From sequence record NC_007023.1: DNA of 64,000 nt. One strand, 5' to 3'. Source of the DNA: Escherichia phage RB43. A program made the position numbers and the translations under genes. The notes below the pieces were generated by a model, which made no database searches, was not told the DNA's origin, and saw only the letters and a list, made by a program, of their open reading frames with translations. Positions within the stretch are counted from its first letter, which is position 1; every line of letters starts with the position of its first letter. Shown in pieces: positions 7,830-50,783 of this stretch.

Positions 7830-7903
7830 TAACCTTGAAAAAGTTATTGATCAATTCAATAAATAGGTATATCATACCCATACTTTCAAAAGAGATTGAA
7901 AAC

Positions 7904-8512
7904 ATGAAATCATTCAAAGAACTTATTTCTGAATCTGTTCAGAACAAAAAATTTGCAAAGACAGTTGATCTGGTTGACCGTGGTAATGCTTCAAAAGGTC
8001 AGATCGGTTTCTTACACTTCGCACATGGTGCTGACTACGATGTGTATGCTCCTGATTCTCACGATCTGGCTTACTTCGGTAAAGGCGTTGTTCGTTTGAA
8101 AGGTAAAACCACTGGCAAAACTCAGGCTGCTTATGTTGACTGGGCGAAAGGCACGGTTTCATTCTACAGCGGTGATCCTGCTGATGACCTGAAATTTGAC
8201 AAGCCAGCAAAATTCAAAGGTGCTTCCCTGTACAAAGAAGCGGAAGAGAACATTGATCTGTATAACCAGTTAGCGGAAGATTTCGAAATCGATCTTCCTC
8301 TGGATGAAGCGCTGGTGAAAGGCGGGATCTATAAACTGCCGAGTAACGATATGCACTTGCTGTATACCGGACGCACCAAAACCAAACCAACTGGGGAATA
8401 TGCGGTATTCACTGTTGTTGATGCTTCTGGTAAACCTCGTCTGGTATCCGGCGCACGATTCACCCAGGAATACAAAGGCGACGTAGTAGCCAAACTGGAA
8501 AAAGTCAAATAA
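7904..8512 (+). CDS. internal-protein-like protein with capsid targeting sequence (about 203 aa)
   Basis: N-terminus MKSFKELISE matches T4 CTS consensus MKTYQEFIAE; + gene inside minus-strand block; ATG at 7904 preferred over ORF-track start 7808. Confidence 0.6.
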   Translation: MKSFKELISESVQNKKFAKTVDLVDRGNASKGQIGFLHFAHGADYDVYAPDSHDLAYFGKGVVRLKGKTTGKTQAAYVDWAKGTVSFYSGDPADDLKFDKPAKFKGASLYKEAEENIDLYNQLAEDFEIDLPLDEALVKGGIYKLPSNDMHLLYTGRTKTKPTGEYAVFTVVDASGKPRLVSGARFTQEYKGDVVAKLEKVK

Positions 8513-38559: not shown

Positions 38560-39348
38560 ATGCTAAAAGAACAACTGTTGGCAGAAGCCCAGAACCTGGA
38601 TACCCCAGTTGAGTTAGACAGCATTTTCGAATCAGTTGAACTTTCTGATGAAGTGAAAGCGAATTTCACCACTGTATTCGAACAAGCTGTAAAAGCAAAC
38701 GCTGTTAAACTCGCTGAATCCCATATCAATCAGATCGCGGAACGTTCCGACGAATTGGTTGAAGCCCAGGTTGCCGAAAAAGCTGGCGAAATCGAAACAC
38801 GACTGTACGAAGATGCAAATAAATACTTCGACCACATCGCGCAAGAATGGCTCTCTGAAAATAAAGAAGCCGTATCCCGCGATATTAAGGCCGACCTATT
38901 CGAATCTCTGGTTACTGGCATGAAAGAATTGTTCGTTGATCACAACGTAATTATTCCAGAAGCCCAGGTTGATGTTGTTGCAGAACTCGAAGATGAACTG
39001 ACCGAAAATCAGCAGGAAGTTAAACGCCTGTTCGAAGCAAATCAGGCTCAGGCTAAAGAGATCGCCAACATGAAACGCGATACCATCGTTTCAGAAAAAA
39101 CCAAAGATTTAACTGAATCTCAGGTTGAGAAAGTTCACAATCTGATCGAAGGTTTGGAATATTCCGACAAGTTCGAATCCAAACTGACCGCAATTGTCGA
39201 AATGGTAGCGACTAAAGCGGAAAAACAGGTTGACGAGAGTACCACTACTCAGACAACCAAAGACGATTTTGTTCCGGTGAATGAAAACACTCCGGCAGAG
39301 AAATCGAAGATCAATAAATATGTTGAAGCGGCTAAACGCCTTTCCTAA
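38560..39348 (+). CDS. 22: prohead core scaffold protein gp22
   Basis: 262 aa acidic coiled-coil; synteny. Confidence 0.8.
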   Translation: MLKEQLLAEAQNLDTPVELDSIFESVELSDEVKANFTTVFEQAVKANAVKLAESHINQIAERSDELVEAQVAEKAGEIETRLYEDANKYFDHIAQEWLSENKEAVSRDIKADLFESLVTGMKELFVDHNVIIPEAQVDVVAELEDELTENQQEVKRLFEANQAQAKEIANMKRDTIVSEKTKDLTESQVEKVHNLIEGLEYSDKFESKLTAIVEMVATKAEKQVDESTTTQTTKDDFVPVNENTPAEKSKINKYVEAAKRLS

Positions 39349-39369: not shown

Positions 39370-40944
39370 ATGTCTAAGAAAAACGAATTGATGGAAAAAT
39401 GGAACGATCTTCTGGAATCTCAGGAAGGTTTACCGGATATCGCTACCAAATCCAAAAAACAACTGGTTGCTGCCATTCTGGAAGCCCAGGAAAAAGACGC
39501 TGAAACCGATCCGGTTTATCGCGACGAAAAAATCGTGGAATCCTTCGGTGGTTTCCTGGCCGAAGCAGAAATTGCTGGCGACCACAACTATGACCAGACT
39601 AACATCGCGTCTGGTAAATCCAGCGGTGCTATCACCAACATCGGTCCTGCTGTAATCGGTATGGTTCGCCGTGCGATCCCTAACCTGATTGCATTCGACA
39701 TTTGCGGTGTTCAGCCTATGACTGGCCCTACTGGTCAGGTGTTCGCTCTCCGTGCTGTCTACGGTAAAGATCCTCTGGCTGGCGGTACTCCGGCAGATGT
39801 TCGTGAAGCGTTCCATCCGATGTTTGCCCCGGATACCATGTATTCTGGTGAAGGTGCTCACACCGCATTCGCGAAAATCACCACTGGTACAGCGATCGCT
39901 ACTGGCGCTATCGTATACCACATTTTCCAGGAAACTGGTATTGCATACTTCCAGAACGTTACCTCCGGCAACGTGACTGTAACTGGTGCTGATCCGGCTG
40001 CTCTGGATGCTGCTGTAATCGCAGAGAACGAAAAAGGTACTCTGGCTGAAATCTCTGTTGGTATGGCTACCAGTGTAGCAGAACTGCAAGAGAACTTCAA
40101 CGGTTCTAGCGCTAACCCGTGGAACGAAATGGCTTTCCGTATCGACAAACAGGTTATCGAAGCCCGTAGCCGCCAACTGAAAGCACAGTATTCTGTTGAA
40201 CTGGCACAGGATCTTCGCGCTGTTCACGGTATGGATGCTGACGCAGAACTGTCTGCAATTCTGGCAACTGAAATCATGCTGGAAATCAACCGCGAAATCG
40301 TTGATCTGATCAACTATACCGCTCAGGTTGGTAAATCTGGTTTCACCCAGACCGTAGGCTCTAAAGCTGGTTCCTTCGACTTCCAAGATCCGGTAGATAT
40401 TCGCGGCGCTCGTTGGGCTGGTGAAAGCTACAAGGCTCTGCTGATTCAGATCGACAAAGAAGCAAACGAAATCGCACGTCAGACAGGCCGTGGTGCTGGT
40501 AACTTCATCATCGCTTCCCGTAACGTGGTTTCCGCTCTGGCTCGTATCGACAGCGGCATCACTCCGGCAAGTCAAGGTCTCCAGAAGACTCTGAACGTTG
40601 ATACCACGAAAGCAGTATTCGCTGGTGTTCTGGGTGGCACTTACAAAGTGTACATTGACCAGTACGCACGTCAGGATTACTTCACCGTTGGCTTCAAGGG
40701 CGACAACGAAATGGATGCTGGTATCTACTACGCGCCATACGTTGCACTGACCCCGCTGCGTGGTTCTGATCCGAAGAACTTCCAGCCAGTAATGGGCTTC
40801 AAAACTCGTTACGGTATCGGTATCAACCCGTTTGCGAACTCTCGCTCTCAGGCTCCGGCAGATCGTATCACCTCTGGTATGATCAGCAAAGAAATGTGCG
40901 GTAAAAACGCATACTTCCGTAAGGTCTGGGTTAAAGGTCTGTAA
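39370..40944 (+). CDS. 23: major capsid protein gp23
   Basis: Near-colinear with T4 gp23 (GPAVIGMVRRAIPNLIAFDICGVQPM, DAGIYYAPYVALTPLRGSDPKNFQPVMGFKTRYGIGINPFA). Confidence 0.95.
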   Translation: MSKKNELMEKWNDLLESQEGLPDIATKSKKQLVAAILEAQEKDAETDPVYRDEKIVESFGGFLAEAEIAGDHNYDQTNIASGKSSGAITNIGPAVIGMVRRAIPNLIAFDICGVQPMTGPTGQVFALRAVYGKDPLAGGTPADVREAFHPMFAPDTMYSGEGAHTAFAKITTGTAIATGAIVYHIFQETGIAYFQNVTSGNVTVTGADPAALDAAVIAENEKGTLAEISVGMATSVAELQENFNGSSANPWNEMAFRIDKQVIEARSRQLKAQYSVELAQDLRAVHGMDADAELSAILATEIMLEINREIVDLINYTAQVGKSGFTQTVGSKAGSFDFQDPVDIRGARWAGESYKALLIQIDKEANEIARQTGRGAGNFIIASRNVVSALARIDSGITPASQGLQKTLNVDTTKAVFAGVLGGTYKVYIDQYARQDYFTVGFKGDNEMDAGIYYAPYVALTPLRGSDPKNFQPVMGFKTRYGIGINPFANSRSQAPADRITSGMISKEMCGKNAYFRKVWVKGL

Positions 40945-42384: not shown

Positions 42385-42543
42385 GAGCGAAGCGAATTTT
42401 CACGAACGAAGTGAGTGATAGGAACTACATAATTATATTTTAATATTTTATATATAGAGAAAAATGTAGTTTTTGGTATGGTTTTTAACCAGATGTAAAC
42501 TAACATTCACTCACTACGTTCGTTCATGTACTCGCTTCGCTCG
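42385..42543. repeat. dyad-symmetric intergenic element, copy B
   Basis: Same arms and identical 57-bp core (42423-42479) as copy A; arms form an imperfect ~34-bp inverted repeat. Confidence 0.75.
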
Positions 42544-42548
42544 TAAAT

Positions 42549-42576
42549 TTGACTTCTTGATCATAGTGGTTATAAT
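42549..42576 (+). promoter_or_regulatory. sigma70-like promoter (TTGACT-16-TATAAT) upstream of uvsY
   Basis: -35 TTGACT 42549-42554, -10 TATAAT 42571-42576. Confidence 0.4.
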
Positions 42577-42599
42577 GATTCTTTGTTTTGAGGTGATAC

Positions 42600-43022
42600 A
42601 TGACTGAACTAAAACTTGAAGATTTACAGGCTGAACTCGAACAGGATATGTTGATTGATCCTCTGAAACTACAGAGTGAATCAGCAGACATTCCGAAGAT
42701 TTGGTCAAAATGGCTTCGATATCATTCGAATGCTAAGAAAAAACTGATCCAGCTACAGGCCAGGAAAGAAGCAGATGTTAAAGAACGTCTTCTGTATTAC
42801 ACTGGACGGCATGAGACTGAAATGACTGATGTCATTTACACAGGTTCAGGTGAAATTAAGATTGCGATCAATGGTGATCCGAAAATTGTTGAGGTTAACA
42901 AGCTGATCCAGTATTTCGAATTGATTGCAGAATTCACCAGCAAAGCGCTGGACATTGTTAAGAACAAAGGATATTCTATCAAAAATATGTTGGAAATCCG
43001 AAAACTTGAGAGTGGTGCATAA
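42600..43022 (+). CDS. uvsY: recombination mediator UvsY
   Basis: LEDLQAELEQDMLIDPLKLQ, YSKWLRYHS, RLLYYTGR, AFEAG-like C-terminus match T4 UvsY. Confidence 0.85.
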   Translation: MTELKLEDLQAELEQDMLIDPLKLQSESADIPKIWSKWLRYHSNAKKKLIQLQARKEADVKERLLYYTGRHETEMTDVIYTGSGEIKIAINGDPKIVEVNKLIQYFELIAEFTSKALDIVKNKGYSIKNMLEIRKLESGA

Positions 43023-43023
43023 A

Positions 43024-43215
43024 ATGTCAAATCAATTTGAAAGCCAGCACGACGCTAAATGCGTGGTGTGCAAACGTCCAATGGTAACAGCTACTGGGTT
43101 TGTTACCGAATCCGGTCCCGTTTGTGGTCCTATCTGTGCTCAGTATCTGATTGAGCGTGATAAATCTGGACTGAACGAAGCCGACGATCTGAACGAAGTT
43201 CAAATGTTGCTGTAG
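43024..43215 (+). CDS. uvsY.-2-like small Cys-containing protein (63 aa)
   Basis: ATG 43024 just after uvsY stop; CVVCKRP...CGPIC. Confidence 0.5.
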   Translation: MSNQFESQHDAKCVVCKRPMVTATGFVTESGPVCGPICAQYLIERDKSGLNEADDLNEVQMLL

Positions 43216-43532
43216 GTGGGAATATGAACACGGAAGATGTTGACTTTTTCGACGAAAGGCCGGATCTGATTGATTCCGGTTGTTTCGAAGATGAACACCC
43301 AGATTTTTAATCAGTAAATAGATGTGTACCCCTTGTTGGGCTTGGGCTTGCCGTATGGCGTACCCATTTGCGCCGTCCGATAGAATTTACTTTCGGCGGG
43401 GTGATTGGTAAAATACCTTCGAGTAAAGGCCAGTGAATAGTAATTCGGAATAGTACCGCACCGAAATAAATAAATGTACTTCCTCGCGGTTCTGTTATGC
43501 CGCTGTTTATATGACTGCGGTTATATAAAATT

Positions 43533-43566
43533 AAAGCCCCTTCCTTTCGGTTGGGGCTTCTTTTTT
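43533..43566. terminator. bidirectional rho-independent terminator
   Basis: AAAGCCCCTTCCTTTCGGTTGGGGCTTCTTTTTT; hairpin identical to 8520-8541. Confidence 0.6.
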
Positions 43567-43795
43567 AGAACTTCTCTTCTTCTCCGGTTTCAAGTTCGGC
43601 TTTGAGTTCTTCACGCCGTCCCTTGATCGCGTCACGCATTGAAATGTCATCGGATGCTGCAACTTCAACTTCCTTGACCCGCGTATTGTAATACTTTTCC
43701 AACTCTTTCAAACCGTCCAATGTACGGCACGAAGCAACTTTATTCATGAAATCATCAATTGCGGCTTCGTTAACGAATTCAGTAAAACTTTTCAT
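43565..43795 (-). CDS. small capsid-targeting-sequence protein (76 aa)
   Basis: N-terminus MKSFTEFVNEA matches T4 CTS; GAGG SD; co-transcribed downstream of uvsW. Confidence 0.55.
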   Translation of the reverse strand: MKSFTEFVNEAAIDDFMNKVASCRTLDGLKELEKYYNTRVKEVEVAASDDISMRDAIKGRREELKAELETGEEEKF

Positions 43796-43804
43796 CTTAA
43801 CCTC

Positions 43805-45304
43805 TTAAATTTCTACCTGTTTGATCACGTAGTCGAATCGTTCTTCATTGTAGATCCGCACACGTTCCATAGCATGTTTCATGCCGTAGTTAGTTGCACT
43901 ATATTTATTTTTGGCTGTCTTCGACTTCGCCAGCGTTGCCAGGTTATCGACGATATCCCATACAGTAGCCAGCGCTTTCGAACCATGCTTACGCAACACG
44001 CGCCCGATCGACTGCTTAACAACAACGGCAGATTTGCAAGGGTGTGCAAAAATGATGTGATGCAGGTTCTTGATTGAAATACCTGTACTCAGTACCCCGA
44101 TCGAACCGATTACAATCAAACCCTTTGTTGATTCCGCAATCTTTTTCATTTCGTTGCGGTCGTCAATGTCCGTATCGCCGTTGATCAACACAACGTTGTC
44201 ATAAACCTTGCTCAACTTCTCGTACAGCCATTTTCCGTGTTCTTTATACCGGAACATCACGAATGTGTTTTCGTTCTTCTCACGGGCTAATTTAAGCGCT
44301 AATTTTAGAATCCATGCGTTGCGCCGTGTATGGCTTGTAACGTACTTGATTTCTGTCTGGTAGTCCGCACCTTTTAACTTCTTAACCTCTTCTTCTTTGT
44401 ATCGAAGAAAGATTGTGTTAATTTTCAGGTTGGTGACTTGTCCATCATCCATCAAACGACGCGTATCAACTGGTTTAAAGACTTTACCGAACGCACCGAT
44501 GTATTGCATCATGTTCGTTTTCCCTTCTTTCAGGGAACCGGATAACCCCAGTTTGAAAATGCACTGATCCATTGTGTCGATAATCTTTTTGATGCTCAAC
44601 CCTGTTGAGAGGTGGCATTCATCAACCATCAGGCACATGAACTGCTGGAACCACTCAGCAGGCATTTTAACCGCTGATTGCCAGGTTGAAACATAGATTA
44701 GCGCGTTGCTGTTCTTAGCAGTACCGGAACGAATACCCAGCATTGCCGATTTCGGAAACAGTCGATAGTTTGCGATGTCCTCGATCATTTGGTCAACCAG
44801 CGCCGTAGTTGGAACGATAATCAGCACTTTACCGCTGTAATGTTCCAGACACCAACGGGAGATAAGACCCTGAATCAGTGATTTACCCGCTGACGTTGGC
44901 AGGTTCAGAACACCTCGACGGTTTTTGATACCGTGGAATACGGATTCGCGTTGATACCAGTAAGGATCGATCTTTTTGTCGCCGTCATAAACTGGATGCT
45001 CGTTTACCCACTTGTCAAAATCTTCTTGCGTGATATCCTCTGTCTCGTGGATCTTCGGATCTACCCAGATTGAATACCCGCGCGATTCTGCGAATTTTGC
45101 TACCAGATAGGCTAATCCATACGGGAGTTTTCCGTTGTAGTCCATCAGGTAAATGTACCCGTTCCATCCACCATATTTGTACTTGTTTTGGTACTGATAG
45201 CCTGGAGGCTGGAATGAAAAATAGTCACGCAGTTCATAGACAATGTTTGCTTCTGCCTGAATCTGTACGTGGCTTGTGTTTAAATATTTGACTTCAATAT
45301 CCAC
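43805..45304 (-). CDS. uvsW: DNA/RNA helicase UvsW
   Basis: LNLPTSAGKSLIQ (Walker A), MVDECHL (DECH box), GRVLRKHGSKALATVWD; near-colinear with T4 UvsW. Confidence 0.9.
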   Translation of the reverse strand: MDIEVKYLNTSHVQIQAEANIVYELRDYFSFQPPGYQYQNKYKYGGWNGYIYLMDYNGKLPYGLAYLVAKFAESRGYSIWVDPKIHETEDITQEDFDKWVNEHPVYDGDKKIDPYWYQRESVFHGIKNRRGVLNLPTSAGKSLIQGLISRWCLEHYSGKVLIIVPTTALVDQMIEDIANYRLFPKSAMLGIRSGTAKNSNALIYVSTWQSAVKMPAEWFQQFMCLMVDECHLSTGLSIKKIIDTMDQCIFKLGLSGSLKEGKTNMMQYIGAFGKVFKPVDTRRLMDDGQVTNLKINTIFLRYKEEEVKKLKGADYQTEIKYVTSHTRRNAWILKLALKLAREKNENTFVMFRYKEHGKWLYEKLSKVYDNVVLINGDTDIDDRNEMKKIAESTKGLIVIGSIGVLSTGISIKNLHHIIFAHPCKSAVVVKQSIGRVLRKHGSKALATVWDIVDNLATLAKSKTAKNKYSATNYGMKHAMERVRIYNEERFDYVIKQVEI

Positions 45305-45375
45305 TATGATTACCCTATGTACAAAGTATATAGGTATTTATTGCCTAAATATTGAATAAACACTGGAGATAGACA

Positions 45376-46296
45376 ATGAAAATTGATTACGAATTGGTAG
45401 AAGGGTTCCGTGCTCTGCCTACTAAAGAACAGAAAGGCGCACTGGCTGACTACGCTCAAAGCACCTTTGAAGTAAAATTGAACAAACAAAAATCATTCGA
45501 TAACATGCTGGCTGATCTGGAAGCTGCTGTACCAGCGGAAGAAGAAAAACCGGAACTGCTGATTGATTCCCCAGAATCCGCGATCGTTTCGTACACTGGT
45601 AGCGTTGCAATGGATGAACCTGTTGTTAACGCTCCGAACATTCCTGATGTTGTTGTCGATGTGTCGCAGGACTTTATGGATTACGTCAAAGACGTTGCGC
45701 CGGAAGTGGCTGATCAGATTAAATTAGTCCCTGATGTTGTTGTCGATGTGTCGCAGGACTTTATGGATTACGTCAAAGACGTTGCGCCGGAAGTGGCTGA
45801 TCAGATTAAATTAGTCCCTGATGTTGTTGTCGATGTGTCGCAGGACTTTATGGATTACGTCAAAGACGTTGCGCCGGAAGTGGCTGATCAGATTAAATTA
45901 GTCCCTGATGTTGTTGTCGATGTGTCGCAGGACTTTATGGATTACGTCAAAGACGTTGCGCCGGAAGTGGCTGATCAGATTAAATTAGTCCCTGATGTTG
46001 TAGAAGCGTCTGTAACCGCTTCTGACGAGTCCAAAGCTGATATGGCATGGTTGGACGGGTTTAGCCCTACAATCGTTCTGATGGGGCGTAGCGCTCGTTC
46101 TAACGGCTATTATACGTGTCCCTGGTGGATCTACGATTGGATTAAGAAAAATCCAGATTGGTACAAAGATCCTGACCAGTGTCCACACTACAGCGCACGG
46201 GATACCCTGAAATCGCTGGTGTACTACATCAAACGTGATGGTCAAGTTACTGTGCGTGAAACGCGCAACAGCAGTTTCGATACCTTCAAATTTTAG
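45376..46296 (+). CDS. hypothetical protein with 4 identical 29-aa repeats and C-terminal PWWIYD domain
   Basis: 306-aa ORF; repeat PDVVVDVSQDFMDYVKDVAPEVADQIKLV x4; C-terminal YYTCPWWIYDWIKKNPDWY. Confidence 0.6.
   Translation: MKIDYELVEGFRALPTKEQKGALADYAQSTFEVKLNKQKSFDNMLADLEAAVPAEEEKPELLIDSPESAIVSYTGSVAMDEPVVNAPNIPDVVVDVSQDFMDYVKDVAPEVADQIKLVPDVVVDVSQDFMDYVKDVAPEVADQIKLVPDVVVDVSQDFMDYVKDVAPEVADQIKLVPDVVVDVSQDFMDYVKDVAPEVADQIKLVPDVVEASVTASDESKADMAWLDGFSPTIVLMGRSARSNGYYTCPWWIYDWIKKNPDWYKDPDQCPHYSARDTLKSLVYYIKRDGQVTVRETRNSSFDTFKF
45643..45990 (+). repeat. perfect tandem repeat, 4 x 87 bp (plus 11-bp partial fifth unit)
   Basis: Units at 45643, 45730, 45817, 45904 identical by eye; in-frame inside CDS. 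Confidence 0.9.
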
Positions 46297-46317
46297 CACT
46301 TTTTGCTAAAAATCTGG

Positions 46318-46346
46318 TTGACTCGTACCCCGCTTTAAAGTATATT
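46318..46346 (+). promoter_or_regulatory. sigma70-like promoter (TTGACT-17-TATATT)
   Basis: Upstream of ORF 46397. Confidence 0.35.
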
Positions 46347-46396
46347 TGTACTCGAAGGCGGGGGAAAGGCTCTCGCAGTGAAAGAAGGAAAGCAAA

Positions 46397-46714
46397 ATGA
46401 AAAACGAAATGATGAAAAATGCTTATTATCCGGTTTTGTTTGTTTGGGGCGGGGAAAAAGTTAAAACTATCGTTAATTCACAAGCTCCGTATTACACTGT
46501 AGGTGAAGCACTTCGTCACGCCGCCGAAGCTGATTATCCGGTATCATTTGAACCTGGTTATGCTCGTTGGAACGGTTCTAAGTGGGTTGCTGATAGCTGG
46601 GACAACTACGAAGAATCAAGAATGGAACATGATCCTGATTATGTTTCTCGCCAGATGGAAGCGCACATGATTGCAGACCGTCGCCTCGATAATGAAGCTC
46701 GCGGATTCTGGTAA
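46397..46714 (+). CDS. hypothetical protein (105 aa)
   Basis: ORF with GAAGGAAAG SD. Confidence 0.5.
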   Translation: MKNEMMKNAYYPVLFVWGGEKVKTIVNSQAPYYTVGEALRHAAEADYPVSFEPGYARWNGSKWVADSWDNYEESRMEHDPDYVSRQMEAHMIADRRLDNEARGFW

Positions 46715-48916: not shown

Positions 48917-49750
48917 TCAACCCCATGTATCGGTTTTGGGTGCGTATGCTGCAACTTTAGCAACCAATTCCTTATCAAGCTGGTCAATAGATTTCTGTGC
49001 TTTACCTTTTGACTTAACTTTGATGTAGTTAGACTTGACAACAAACATACCGCCTTTGTCAGATTTTTTGATCTCGCTATCGATACCAACTTTGTTAAAG
49101 CTGATCCAGATATCACCATCCATATACTGTTTCAGTGAATCGCCCATGTTCAGGATCTTAGCCATAGTAAGAGCGGCCCCTTCGTGGGTATCCATGAGGA
49201 TCTCTTTAGGAACCACACGGTCACGTTTCAGGTTCTGCTGCATAGCAATATGAACATCGTTCATTACCCAAACGATATGGATGTTTTCTTTATGGTATCC
49301 CAGCGTTTCAACGTCACGGGCAATGCTTGCCAGCTTGCTCATGCTTTTTAGGGTAACGTCGAAAATCAGGTTTGGTTTGCGGTCTTCTGGTGCTGCTGCA
49401 ATACCAGCATAAACACGCGCCTGGTTTTTGTTGGATACGTTGAAAACGTCTGCGATCACATGATGCAGGGTTGCCACGTTATCCGGGTTTTTCAGGTTCA
49501 TGGTTTTAACATCATGACCAGTTTTAGCTTTGATTTCTGCCGCCAGTTTGGTGCTACCCATTACCAGCTTTTTCAGTGCGTCAACGTCCAGTGTGATTCC
49601 TTCGATACCTAACAGTTTTTCGAGGGTAAAACCTTTACCGGAACCCGCACCGCCAGCCAGGATCACAACCTGACCAAATTTAGGATATGCCTTGCCGCCA
49701 AACGTAATCAACGCTTCGTCAAGGGATACAAAGTCTTTGAATGATTTCAT
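48917..49750 (-). CDS. capsid-targeting-sequence protein with P-loop kinase-like domain
   Basis: N-terminus MKSFKDFVSLDEA (CTS-like) followed by Walker A VVILAGGAGSGKGFT. Confidence 0.6.
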   Translation of the reverse strand: MKSFKDFVSLDEALITFGGKAYPKFGQVVILAGGAGSGKGFTLEKLLGIEGITLDVDALKKLVMGSTKLAAEIKAKTGHDVKTMNLKNPDNVATLHHVIADVFNVSNKNQARVYAGIAAAPEDRKPNLIFDVTLKSMSKLASIARDVETLGYHKENIHIVWVMNDVHIAMQQNLKRDRVVPKEILMDTHEGAALTMAKILNMGDSLKQYMDGDIWISFNKVGIDSEIKKSDKGGMFVVKSNYIKVKSKGKAQKSIDQLDKELVAKVAAYAPKTDTWG

Positions 49751-49782
49751 CTTAGAACTCCAGGGTTATTTTAATATATTTA

Positions 49783-49812
49783 TTGACACCGTTTATTGGT
49801 TGGGTTTATAGT
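49783..49812 (+). promoter_or_regulatory. sigma70-like promoter (TTGACA-18-TATAGT)
   Basis: In divergent intergenic region upstream of ORF 49863. Confidence 0.4.
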
Positions 49813-49862: not shown

Positions 49863-50783
49863 ATGAAACTTGAATTAAACCGCTTCATCAAAGCCGCTGC
49901 TGCTGGCGACCAGTCAAAATACAAATCCCGTCGCGATACCCTGATTGACGATTTCTGTAATCTGCTGGGGTTCAAGCGCTGGCATACTCCGTCTATGCGT
50001 CCAGACTGTGATCCAAAATGGGATTACTTCAAATGGACTCCCCGCGATCGTGGTTATGTCGATAACGTCCGCGTAATGACATTCACTCATATGTACGCAA
50101 ATGCAATAATAGAAGTTGCCAAACGTAATAATTCTACGTACCCGAACGGGTGGAAGGTTGCAGAAGTCATTGAAACCCTGATGCAACTGCGCCGTGAATA
50201 TAAAGCTGGAATGATGATGCAACTGCGCCGTGAATATAAAGCTGGAATGATACGTAAATTGGAAGAACAATCCGAAAGACATGAATATAAAGAATGGTCT
50301 ATCGTCGCAAAATATCTGCTGAACATCACCTATTCGGTTTTCTGTCGCTTCGGAACAAAAGAAATCGGGTTCGGTTCTCATGATATCATTGCAGAAGCCC
50401 GTCATCGCCTGACATACGCGATCCTGAAAATTCAAAATTCCGGTGGTCTTGTTCTGGCTGCATTCTGTGATGAAATTGTGTACTACGGCGATCAGGTTGA
50501 AGTTGAAGGTGTTCACCACGAAAAATTCAACAAACTTGTGTTCGGACAATATAACAGCTATTCATACGGAAACGATATCCGCGTGATGATGCACCCGCGT
50601 ATTATGCTGGATATGGAAGGGTGGGAACCTGGACACGGGATCGGTGATATCGAAAGCCAGCGTGAACGCCGTGTTCGTTCTGTCGCAAAAGCTCGCGAAT
50701 TGATGACGGGTAGCCTTACTGATTACCTGTTCAGAACAAAAGAAGACGTTGAAAAAGAATTTGTTGACTTGTCGGGCGAATAG
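49863..50783 (+). CDS. hypothetical protein (306 aa) containing a 36-bp tandem duplication
   Basis: ORF; MQLRREYKAGMM / MQLRREYKAGMI duplicated in frame. Confidence 0.55.
   Translation: MKLELNRFIKAAAAGDQSKYKSRRDTLIDDFCNLLGFKRWHTPSMRPDCDPKWDYFKWTPRDRGYVDNVRVMTFTHMYANAIIEVAKRNNSTYPNGWKVAEVIETLMQLRREYKAGMMMQLRREYKAGMIRKLEEQSERHEYKEWSIVAKYLLNITYSVFCRFGTKEIGFGSHDIIAEARHRLTYAILKIQNSGGLVLAAFCDEIVYYGDQVEVEGVHHEKFNKLVFGQYNSYSYGNDIRVMMHPRIMLDMEGWEPGHGIGDIESQRERRVRSVAKARELMTGSLTDYLFRTKEDVEKEFVDLSGE
50181..50252 (+). repeat. tandem duplication, 2 x 36 bp (35/36 identical)
   Basis: ATGCAACTGCGCCGTGAATATAAAGCTGGAATGAT(G/A) repeated head to tail. Confidence 0.85.

What the first reader, a model, noticed from the sequence alone, without database searches (positions are those of the whole stretch)
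43565..43795. Third CTS-bearing small protein co-transcribed with uvsW
The 76-aa protein starts MKSFTEFVNEA, the closest of the three to the T4 CTS. It is acidic and helical and has its own SD just after the uvsW stop. It may be a small packaged cargo.
Basis: partly seen in the sequence, partly recalled or inferred. Interest (0 to 1): 0.45.

Follow-up and report, generated by a model that had tools for sequence, protein, structure and literature searches.

The report
UvsW.1, helicase partner with CTS-like start
The 76-residue gene is the already described uvsW.1 of phage RB43, a small helical partner of the UvsW repair helicase; its first ten residues do look like the tag that T4-type phages use to load proteins into the capsid, but nothing yet shows that it is loaded.

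Summary
The ORF at 43565..43795 (-) is real. It is uvsW.1 of phage RB43. The window is 100% identical to RB43, and the protein matches T4 UvsW.1 (PDB 2JPN, E=5e-21) and Pfam UvsW-1 (64 bits against a cut-off of 25). RB16 annotates the same gene, and a 2006 paper described it for RB43. It starts 9 nt after the uvsW stop, has a GAGG Shine-Dalgarno and ends at a bidirectional terminator.

A profile built only from T-even capsid targeting sequences (CTS) ranks this N-terminus 2nd of 2031 candidate starts in the RB16 genome. It matches the CTS at positions 4, 7, 8 and 10, the positions that matter experimentally. The motif F-x-x-Φ-Φ-x-E-A is conserved across the UvsW.1 family. The same leader heads hundreds of unrelated proteins in environmental T4-like phages.

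Several points argue against packaging. The register shifts in T4 itself. The motif is the first half of predicted helix 1. The gene is translationally coupled to uvsW in most T4-like phages. No virion evidence was found.

Best reading: a cytoplasmic UvsW accessory protein (about 0.8). Packaged cargo: about 0.12. The gene is already known.

The parts
43565..43795 (-). uvsW.1 coding sequence (76 aa plus TAA stop)
   Evidence: ORF list. PDB 2JPN, E=4.8e-21. Pfam PF11637, 64.4 bits against a cut-off of 25. PHROG 1143, full length, E=3.9e-36. RB16 annotates the same gene as uvsW.1.
43763..43795 (-). Codons 1-11, MKSFTEFVNEA: the CTS-like N-terminal motif (F4, F7, V8, E10, A11)
   Evidence: Regular-expression and profile scans. 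Family alignment with F4 at least 90% conserved. Predicted to be the first half of helix 4-22.
43589..43738 (-). UvsW-1 domain core (residues 20-69 by Pfam; conservation starts at about residue 12)
   Evidence: Pfam match. Invariant F16, T25, G28, E31, Y36, D50, I51, R54, D55, G59. The model superposes on 2JPN with TM 0.70 and rmsd 2.5 A.
43568..43600 (-). Acidic C-terminal tail AELETGEEEKF ending in Phe
   Evidence: pLDDT drops below 50 at residues 74-76. The last residue is F in 62 of 74 distinct family members.
43801..43804 (-). Shine-Dalgarno GAGG, directly after the uvsW stop (TAA at 43805-43807) and 5 nt before the ATG
   Evidence: Read from the sequence. In 48 of 64 related loci a long upstream ORF ends between -4 and +25 nt of the uvsW.1 start.
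43805..45304 (-). uvsW helicase gene (499 aa, GTG start), upstream gene of the same operon
   Evidence: Pfam UvsW_N (E=5.6e-31), ResIII and Helicase_C. RB16 annotation.
45335..45343 (-). CAATAAATA, a late-promoter-like motif 30 nt upstream of the uvsW start
   Evidence: There are 5 copies in the window against 1.2 expected, and none of 100 shuffles reaches 5. One copy lies before gp23 at 39312. A or T at -13 is common in late promoters of T4 relatives (PMC1524935). T4 uvsW is expressed from a late promoter (PMC3016281).
43533..43560 (.). Bidirectional terminator hairpin between the convergent uvsW.1 and uvsY-side transcripts
   Evidence: Folds at -18.2 kcal/mol (minus strand) and -17.8 kcal/mol (plus strand), z = -4.4 and -3.7, with no shuffle folding as well. 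A conserved bidirectional terminator downstream of uvsW.1 is reported for T4 and five relatives including RB43 (PMC1524935).

Best explanation
This is uvsW.1 of phage RB43, a small three/four-helix protein made together with the UvsW SF2 helicase. Both genes are read from one late transcript by translational coupling. The protein most likely works in the infected cell as an accessory subunit of UvsW, which unwinds R-loops and branched DNA, migrates branches and anneals strands. It has three parts: an N-terminal amphipathic segment (residues 1-11), the conserved UvsW-1 helical core (about residues 12-70), and an acidic tail ending in Phe. The N-terminal segment is most likely the start of helix 1 and/or a docking helix for UvsW. 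On this reading, its likeness to the capsid targeting sequence comes from a conserved amphipathic helix that begins with Met-Lys, and it is not a working packaging signal. What is shown: identity, fold, gene order, coupling signals, the terminator and conservation of the motif. What is inferred: late transcription (motif only), binding to UvsW (from T4 biochemistry recalled from the literature, not tested here) and the role of the N-terminal segment.
For: Identity:
- The window is 100% identical to RB43.
- The protein matches PDB 2JPN at E=4.8e-21, Pfam UvsW-1 at 64.4 bits and PHROG 1143 over its full length.
- The AlphaFold model superposes only on 2JPN (TM 0.70).
- RB16 annotates the gene as uvsW.1, and PMC1524935 describes uvsW.1 and its bidirectional terminator in RB43 and four other phages.

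Link to the helicase:
- The gap to uvsW is 9 nt and contains a GAGG.
- In 48 of 64 related loci the helicase ORF ends between -4 and +25 nt of the start, often as overlapping ATGA or TAATG.
- 1336 phage records hold a homologue.
- PMC7824862 calls UvsW.1 the potential DNA-binding partner of UvsW.

The motif as a structural element:
- Helix 4-22 is predicted as one continuous helix with pLDDT above 80.
- F4, F7, V8, A11, F16, M17 and V20 follow the spacing of one hydrophobic face.
- The motif is conserved in T4, Mosigvirus and relatives in other registers: aromatic at position 3 in 6 proteins, at 5 in 7, and at 4 in 45 of 74 distinct proteins.
- T4's own UvsW.1 scores -22 (rank 1895 of 2031) against the T-even CTS profile in its native register. 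Some constraint other than capsid targeting therefore keeps the motif in those phages, and that constraint is enough to explain it in RB43.

From my own knowledge, not checked here: Nelson and Benkovic 2007 (PMID 17092935) reported that UvsW.1 forms a complex with UvsW and inhibits its annealing activity.
Against: - The N-terminus is the second most CTS-like start in the whole RB16 genome. It agrees with the CTS at the positions reported to matter: 4 and 7 for targeting, 8 and 10 for processing (PMC9026906).
- It also agrees with the broad leader class at positions that were not used to select that class.
- In distant family members a charged linker of 10-70 aa separates the motif from the core. 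Remote homologues of the core fused to another domain lack the motif. The motif therefore behaves as a separable add-on and not only as part of the fold.
- The gene is probably expressed late, when proheads assemble.
- The UvsW interaction was not tested here, and the primary papers could not be read.
Confidence: 0.8

Rival explanations
1. Packaged cargo. The N-terminal decapeptide acts as a capsid targeting sequence. It binds the gp22 scaffolding core during prohead assembly. The gp21 protease cuts after E10 (V-N-E|A). The 66-residue acidic product stays in the head and enters the next host with the DNA.
For: - F4, F7, V8 and E10 match the CTS positions that matter.
- The start ranks 2nd of 2031 in the genome by a T-even CTS profile. 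The only other strict match in the genome is a probable internal protein.
- RB43's own probable internal proteins start MKSFKELISE and MKSFKDFVSLDE, sharing MKSF with UvsW.1.
- The leader M-K-[ST]-F-K-[EQ]-F-[LI]-x-E-[AS] heads more than 240 unrelated ORFs in IMG/VR. About 90% of the pattern matches sit at ORF starts, and of the 120 loci of the first scan that were checked, 103 carry T4-like genes.
- UvsW.1 family members fit that class at the free positions and show the 'leader plus linker plus domain' layout.
- Close relatives read I-N-E|A, the same site as the predicted gp24 cleavage site V-I-N-E|A in this window.
- Late expression is likely.
- T4 RefSeq still fuses uvsW and uvsW.1. Earlier searches for CTS-like N-termini, and proteomics searches against that record, could have missed the protein.
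Against: - In T4, Mosigvirus and relatives the motif is shifted by one residue in either direction and lacks Lys2 (MLLEFKQFLYEA, MDFKQFLYEA). In contrast, all eight internal-protein N-termini read from T4 and the Mosigvirus TH58 keep the aromatic at position 4.
- V at P3 is outside the reported L/I-x-E motif.
- The gene is translationally coupled to a helicase gene and is not in a variable internal-protein locus with its own promoter.
- The free-position agreement rests largely on helix-favouring residues (K, E, Q, A), so any N-terminal amphipathic helix would score well.
- The papers I could search or read gave no virion detection.
- Reported UvsW binding gives the protein a sufficient cytoplasmic role.
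Confidence: 0.12
2. Relic leader. The 5' end of uvsW.1 and the internal-protein leaders share ancestry through module shuffling, for example recombination at conserved leader DNA, but the leader on UvsW.1 no longer has any targeting role.
For: The same peptide class heads many unrelated genes in T4-like phages. Remote UvsW.1-domain homologues lack the leader.
Against: The 5' regions of uvsW.1 and the 7904 gene show no DNA-level similarity beyond the shared codons. The motif is conserved across the whole UvsW.1 family, which a relic without function would not be.
Confidence: 0.05
3. Wrong start or non-coding ORF: the real product begins at Met17, or the ORF is not expressed.
For: Some database entries start at the internal Met (P0032, P0033).
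Against: A GAGG lies 5 nt before the first ATG. Residues 1-16 are conserved at the protein level in dozens of phages. In the phmmer alignment the deposited 2JPN chain covers residues corresponding to 3-69 of this protein.
Confidence: 0.01

Closest known systems
T4 UvsW.1 (PDB 2JPN; Kerr et al. 2007, PMID 17878153; Pfam PF11637)
   Same: Same length (76 aa), about 57-60% identity, same position directly after uvsW and before a bidirectional terminator, same predicted fold (TM 0.70), and an acidic tail ending in F.
   Different: The RB43 protein starts MKSF-TEFVNEA, which puts the aromatic at position 4 as in the CTS. T4 starts MLLEFKQFLYEA, one residue longer and without Lys2.
RB16 uvsW.1 (ADJ55523.1) and the RB43 uvsW.1 described in Nolan et al. 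2006 (PMC1524935)
   Same: RB16 encodes an identical 76-residue protein in the same operon layout. The 2006 paper reports uvsW split into uvsW and uvsW.1 in RB43 and a conserved bidirectional terminator.
   Different: Nothing of substance. That paper lists the function as unknown and does not mention the N-terminal motif.
Capsid targeting sequence of T4 internal proteins IPI, IPII and IPIII (Mullaney and Black 1996, as reviewed in PMC9026906)
   Same: An N-terminal decapeptide with aromatic 4, Phe 7, aliphatic 8, Glu 10 and Ala 11. Probable late expression. A small product.
   Different: No evidence of packaging or cleavage. V, not I or L, at position 8. Coupled to a helicase gene. Acidic and not basic. 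Orthologues in T-even phages lose the register.
HRDC domain of RecQ helicases (the homology proposed by Kerr et al. 2007, recalled from memory)
   Same: A small helical module associated with an SF2 helicase.
   Different: A Foldseek search of the model against the PDB gave no HRDC chain among the listed matches. Only 2JPN was significant.
Acidic C-terminal tails ending in Phe of single-stranded DNA-binding proteins (E. coli SSB, T7 gp2.5; from memory)
   Same: A run of acidic residues closed by an aromatic residue. The last residue is F in 62 of 74 UvsW.1 proteins.
   Different: A resemblance only. No binding partner for the tail was tested here.

Membership tests
UvsW.1 (Pfam PF11637, PDB 2JPN) | Sequence match above the curated Pfam threshold and to the solved T4 protein | tested here: met
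   64.4 bits against a cut-off of 25. 2JPN at E=4.8e-21 over residues 3-69. PHROG 1143 full length.
UvsW.1 (Pfam PF11637, PDB 2JPN) | Small all-helical bundle fold | tested here: met
   AlphaFold2 pLDDT 83.5 with three helices. Foldseek gives TM 0.70 and rmsd 2.5 A to 2JPN, the only significant hit.
UvsW.1 (Pfam PF11637, PDB 2JPN) | Gene directly downstream of uvsW on the same strand, followed by a bidirectional terminator and a convergent gene | tested here: met
   9-nt gap. Hairpin at 43533-43560. uvsY and uvsY.-2 converge on it. The same layout is seen in 48 of 64 related loci.
UvsW.1 (Pfam PF11637, PDB 2JPN) | Physical complex with UvsW and modulation of its annealing activity | not testable with these tools
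   Known for T4 only from the literature as I recall it (PMID 17092935). That paper was not readable here.
T4-type CTS-bearing internal head proteins | N-terminal decapeptide with targeting determinants at positions 4 and 7 | tested here: met
   F4 and F7. T4 IPI also has F4. The T-even CTS profile gives 14.5, rank 2 of 2031.
T4-type CTS-bearing internal head proteins | gp21 processing site L/I-x-E at positions 8-10 | tested here: inconclusive
   The site is V-N-E|A, with V and not L or I. Close relatives read I-N-E|A. The motif definition comes from PMC9026906.
T4-type CTS-bearing internal head proteins | The leader keeps a fixed register across orthologues and paralogues | tested here: not met
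   All eight internal-protein N-termini read from T4 and TH58, and the two RB43 candidates, keep the aromatic at position 4. In UvsW.1 proteins it lies at position 2, 3, 4, 5 or 7. T4 UvsW.1 scores -22 in its native register.
T4-type CTS-bearing internal head proteins | Late expression at the time of prohead assembly | tested here: inconclusive
   There is only a consensus motif, CAATAAATA, 30 nt before uvsW, the same motif as before gp23. T4 uvsW is late (PMC3016281).
T4-type CTS-bearing internal head proteins | Presence in proheads or virions and removal of the propeptide | not testable with these tools
   This needs proteomics. No report was found in the papers reachable here.
HRDC domain | Fold similarity to RecQ or RNase D HRDC modules | tested here: inconclusive

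The most novel reading that the evidence does not exclude
UvsW.1 is a prohead-targeted protein. Its conserved N-terminal F-x-x-Φ-Φ-x-E-A segment belongs to the widespread leader class of T4-like phages. On this reading the segment carries part of the UvsW.1 pool into the scaffolding core. gp21 removes it there, and the helical core domain with its acidic tail is injected with the DNA. A recombination-helicase accessory conserved across the T4-like phages examined here would then also be a virion component. It could have been overlooked because the gene was hidden inside a mis-sequenced uvsW until 2006 and still is in the T4 RefSeq record.
Probability: 0.12. Interest if true: 0.7.

Novelty: already known. 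Interest (0 to 1): 0.33.

Why it matters
As a gene call this adds nothing. uvsW.1 of RB43 was described in 2006, and the T4 protein has a solved structure.

What may be worth a specialist's hour is the side result. The N-terminus of UvsW.1 proteins falls in the same sequence class as the capsid targeting leader. That class turns out to head hundreds of unrelated proteins in environmental T4-like phages, including an adenylate kinase, a member of the S-adenosylmethionine lyase family and an ADP-ribosyltransferase.

If UvsW.1 were really loaded into heads, the view of a gene conserved across T4-like phages whose function is still vague would change. The test is cheap: re-search existing virion mass-spectrometry data against a database in which UvsW.1 is a separate entry. 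If it is not loaded, UvsW.1 is a useful negative control for what a working targeting sequence needs beyond residues 4, 7, 8 and 10.

Tried and rejected
- Recent recombination. I aligned the 5' regions of uvsW.1 and the 7904 gene and found no DNA similarity beyond the shared codons. Recent transfer of the leader is rejected.
- Position 6 as a discriminator. It is E in all T-even CTSs, but E, T or K in near-identical RB43-group UvsW.1 proteins. An unbiased leader set shows Q 38%, E 36% and some T and K at that position, so I dropped the argument.
- Virion proteomics. Searches for UvsW.1 in virions of T4 or RB43-like phages led nowhere. 'UvsW.1' gave 10 papers, none on virions. The T4 mass-spectrometry supplements of PMC5694885 hold no UvsW entry. 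The KP15/KP27 and phiEap-3 papers contain no mass spectrometry.
- Primary papers. Kerr 2007, Nelson and Benkovic 2007, Perumal 2013 and Webb 2007 are not held.
- HRDC similarity. It was not recovered by Foldseek.
- Terminator scan. The simple scan missed the hairpin after uvsW.1. Folding showed it.
- Whole T4 genome. I scanned only 36 kb of T4 and used the unannotated Mosigvirus TH58 genome as the complete T-even control.
- UvsW plus UvsW.1 complex model. The structure tool takes single window sequences and returns no contacts, so whether residues 1-11 touch UvsW or pack on the bundle could not be decided.

Full report
WHAT IS THERE

The window is phage RB43. Region 42500-46400 is 100% identical to two RB43 records and 95.5% identical to RB16. 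On the minus strand an ATG-started ORF of 76 codons runs from 43795 to 43565. It starts 9 nt after the stop of a 499-residue ORF (43805..45304). That ORF carries the UvsW_N, ResIII and Helicase_C domains and is the UvsW helicase. The intergenic bases read TAA-GAGG-TTAAG-ATG, so a Shine-Dalgarno lies right after the uvsW stop.

Downstream of the small ORF, a hairpin at 43533-43560 folds well on both strands (-18.2 and -17.8 kcal/mol, z about -4). It separates this operon from the convergent uvsY and uvsY.-2 genes. Thirty bases upstream of uvsW lies CAATAAATA. This motif occurs five times in the window against 1.2 expected, and one copy sits in front of the major capsid gene 23. Late promoters of T4 relatives often have A or T at -13 (PMC1524935), and T4 uvsW is a late gene (PMC3016281). 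Late co-transcription of uvsW and the small ORF is therefore likely, but it rests on motifs only.

IDENTITY

The protein is UvsW.1.
- It matches the NMR structure of T4 UvsW.1 (2JPN) at E=4.8e-21.
- It passes the Pfam UvsW-1 threshold (64.4 against 25 bits) and matches PHROG 1143 end to end.
- An AlphaFold2 model (pLDDT 83.5; helices 4-22, 26-39 and 47-70) superposes on 2JPN with TM 0.70. It matches nothing else in the PDB significantly.
- RB16 annotates the identical gene as uvsW.1.
- Nolan et al. 2006 reported that uvsW is split into uvsW and uvsW.1 in RB43 and four other phages. They also reported that a bidirectional terminator follows uvsW.1 in all of them.
- Homologues occur in 1336 phage records.
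- In 48 of 64 related loci the helicase ORF ends between -4 and +25 nt of the uvsW.1 start, often with overlapping stop and start codons.

The gene is thus a fixed, translationally coupled companion of uvsW. A review calls it the potential DNA-binding partner of UvsW (PMC7824862). From memory, Nelson and Benkovic 2007 showed that it forms a complex with UvsW and inhibits strand annealing. I could not open that paper.

THE CTS RESEMBLANCE IS REAL

The T4 sequences were read from the genome. IPII and IPIII start MKTYQEFIAEA, and IPI starts MKTFKEF. According to PMC9026906, residues 4 and 7 of the CTS matter for targeting and residues 8 and 10 for processing. That review also gives the gp21 cleavage motif as L/I-x-E. 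RB43 UvsW.1 has F4, F7, V8, E10 and A11.

Three tests show that this likeness is unusual.
- A regular expression for the pattern, run over every start codon with at least 40 codons downstream, found only two real genes in the whole RB16 genome. One is UvsW.1. The other is RB16p185, whose RB43 counterpart is window 7904..8512 (MKSFKELISES), lying between genes 3 and 2.
- In the complete Mosigvirus genome TH58 the same expression found five genes. All lie in the internal-protein region, and three belong to PHROGs named internal head or virion protein.
- A profile made from six T-even CTS decapeptides ranked RB16p185 first and UvsW.1 second among 2031 candidate starts (score 14.5, z 5.5). A Zeta-toxin-like protein (window 48917..49750, MKSFKDFVSLDE) came third.

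From the tail of that distribution I estimate roughly a one-in-ten chance that some non-packaged protein in a genome would score this high. The match is unusual but not overwhelming.

THE MOTIF BELONGS TO THE FAMILY, NOT ONLY TO RB43

Among 74 distinct UvsW.1 proteins, 61 begin with [aromatic or Leu]-x-x-Φ-Φ-x-[E/D], and in 60 the next residue is A, S or T. In distant members a charged linker of 10 to 70 residues lies between this segment and the conserved core. Two remote homologues whose core is fused to another domain lack the segment. The segment therefore behaves as a separable module. The C-terminus is acidic and ends in Phe in 62 of 74 proteins.

THE LEADER CLASS IS MUCH WIDER THAN EXPECTED

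I estimated about three by chance from the pattern's roughly 36 bits and an assumed collection size. Of 122 matches, 107 sit at ORF starts of many unrelated proteins. Of the 120 loci, 103 carry genes with BLASTP matches to T4-like phages, often genes that flank the internal-protein loci.

A second pattern left positions 5 and 6 free. It gave 152 of 162 matches at ORF starts, from 141 distinct proteins. Their consensus is M-K-T-F-K-[Q/E]-F-[L/I]-x-E-[A/S]. Examples include an adenylate kinase (E=4e-39), a member of the S-adenosylmethionine lyase family (E=3e-19) and an ART-PolyVal ADP-ribosyltransferase (E=1e-23).

I then scored UvsW.1 N-termini only at the positions that were free in that search. 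They score like genuine CTSs: T4 IPIII 8.1, T4 UvsW.1 in shifted register 8.7, RB43 UvsW.1 3.5, against a background mean of -7.2. One caveat applies. The favoured residues are K, E, Q and A, which any amphipathic helix would favour, and the background consisted mostly of non-genes.

WHY I STILL PREFER THE ORDINARY READING

- Register. In all eight internal-protein N-termini read from T4 and TH58, and in both RB43 candidates, the aromatic residue is at position 4. In UvsW.1 proteins it lies at position 2, 3, 4, 5 or 7. In the T-even phages, where the CTS was defined by experiment, the protein starts MLLEFKQFLYEA, MVLEFKQFLYEA or MDFKQFLYEA. T4 UvsW.1 scores -22 in its native register. Something other than capsid targeting must keep the motif there, and the same constraint is enough for RB43.
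- Structure. The segment is predicted as the first half of a continuous helix 4-22. Its hydrophobic residues continue the face formed by F16, M17 and V20.
- Genetics. The gene is tied to a helicase gene by translational coupling across the family. This fits a stoichiometric partner better than a cargo gene.
- Processing site. V at position 8 is outside the reported L/I-x-E rule, although close relatives read I-N-E.
- Literature. None of the papers I could reach reports UvsW.1 in virions. This is weak evidence, because small proteins are easily missed. The T4 RefSeq record also still merges UvsW.1 into a 587-residue UvsW.

JUDGEMENT

The best explanation is a cytoplasmic accessory of UvsW, with an N-terminal segment that is structural or a docking helix (about 0.8). 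Packaging through a working CTS remains possible (about 0.12). It is cheap to test by re-searching virion mass-spectrometry data for AAIDDFMNK (RB43) or ASIDEFMGK (T4). A relic leader (about 0.05) and a wrong start (about 0.01) are minor options.

The gene itself is already known. To my knowledge the CTS-likeness of UvsW.1 has not been remarked on. The breadth of the leader class in environmental T4-like phages is the more interesting by-product.

Noticed in passing
window 7904..8512 (+); CAATAAATA at 7857..7865: A 202-aa protein (PHROG 7322, unknown function, no Pfam hit) starts MKSFKELISES. It is the best CTS match in the genome, sits between genes 3 and 2, and has a late-promoter-like motif 39 nt upstream. 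It is probably an internal head protein of RB43. The RB16 orthologue is 261 aa, with a different, longer C-terminus.
   Followed up: partly
window 48917..49750 (-); CAATAAATA at 49777..49785 (-): A 277-aa P-loop protein (GGAGSGKG) matches Pfam Zeta_toxin (E=2.7e-7). It has a CTS-like start, MKSFKDFVSLDE, and a late-promoter-like motif just upstream. It could be a packaged kinase-type effector. Nolan et al. 2006 listed it as RB43ORF241c with a weak Zeta toxin hit.
   Followed up: partly
IMG/VR loci L082-L288: The leader M-K-[ST]-F-K-[EQ]-F-[LI]-x-E-[AS] heads more than 240 unrelated ORFs in environmental phage contigs; 103 of the 120 loci checked carry T4-like genes. They include an adenylate kinase, a member of the S-adenosylmethionine lyase family and an ART-PolyVal ADP-ribosyltransferase. 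Several contigs carry two such genes side by side. This looks like a large, unexplored set of candidate capsid-delivered proteins.
   Followed up: partly
window 45643..46001, inside inh (45376..46296, +): The Inh homologue contains 4.1 perfect tandem copies of an 87-bp unit (29 aa, PDVVVDVSQDFMDYVKDVAPEVADQIKLV). The matched span in the deposited RB43 records is 261 bp (three units) shorter than the window region, and the RB16 gene is much shorter. The copy number therefore varies between isolates or assemblies.
   Followed up: partly
window 39535..39570, within gene 23 (39370..40944, +): The end of the gp23 propeptide, ESFGGFLAE|AEIAGD, has the same aromatic-x-x-F-L-x-E|A core as the CTS. A 53-aa ORF in two T4-like contigs (L115, L121) joins a CTS-like start to a stretch resembling the gp23 residues just after the cleavage site.
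   Followed up: no
L007 14678..16441 (T4 NC_000866.4, 112677..114440): The T4 RefSeq record still annotates uvsW as a fused 587-residue protein that includes UvsW.1, with a note about sequence discrepancies. Proteomics or motif searches based on that record cannot see UvsW.1 as a separate protein.
   Followed up: no
proteins P0036 and P0037: Two metagenomic proteins of about 290 aa carry a UvsW.1-like core at the N-terminus, without the N-terminal motif. The core is followed by a domain containing FARMNPPT-AH. I did not run a family search on it.
   Followed up: no
window 49863..50783 (+): This 306-aa ORF contains an immediate internal duplication (QLRREYKAGM twice in a row).
   Followed up: no
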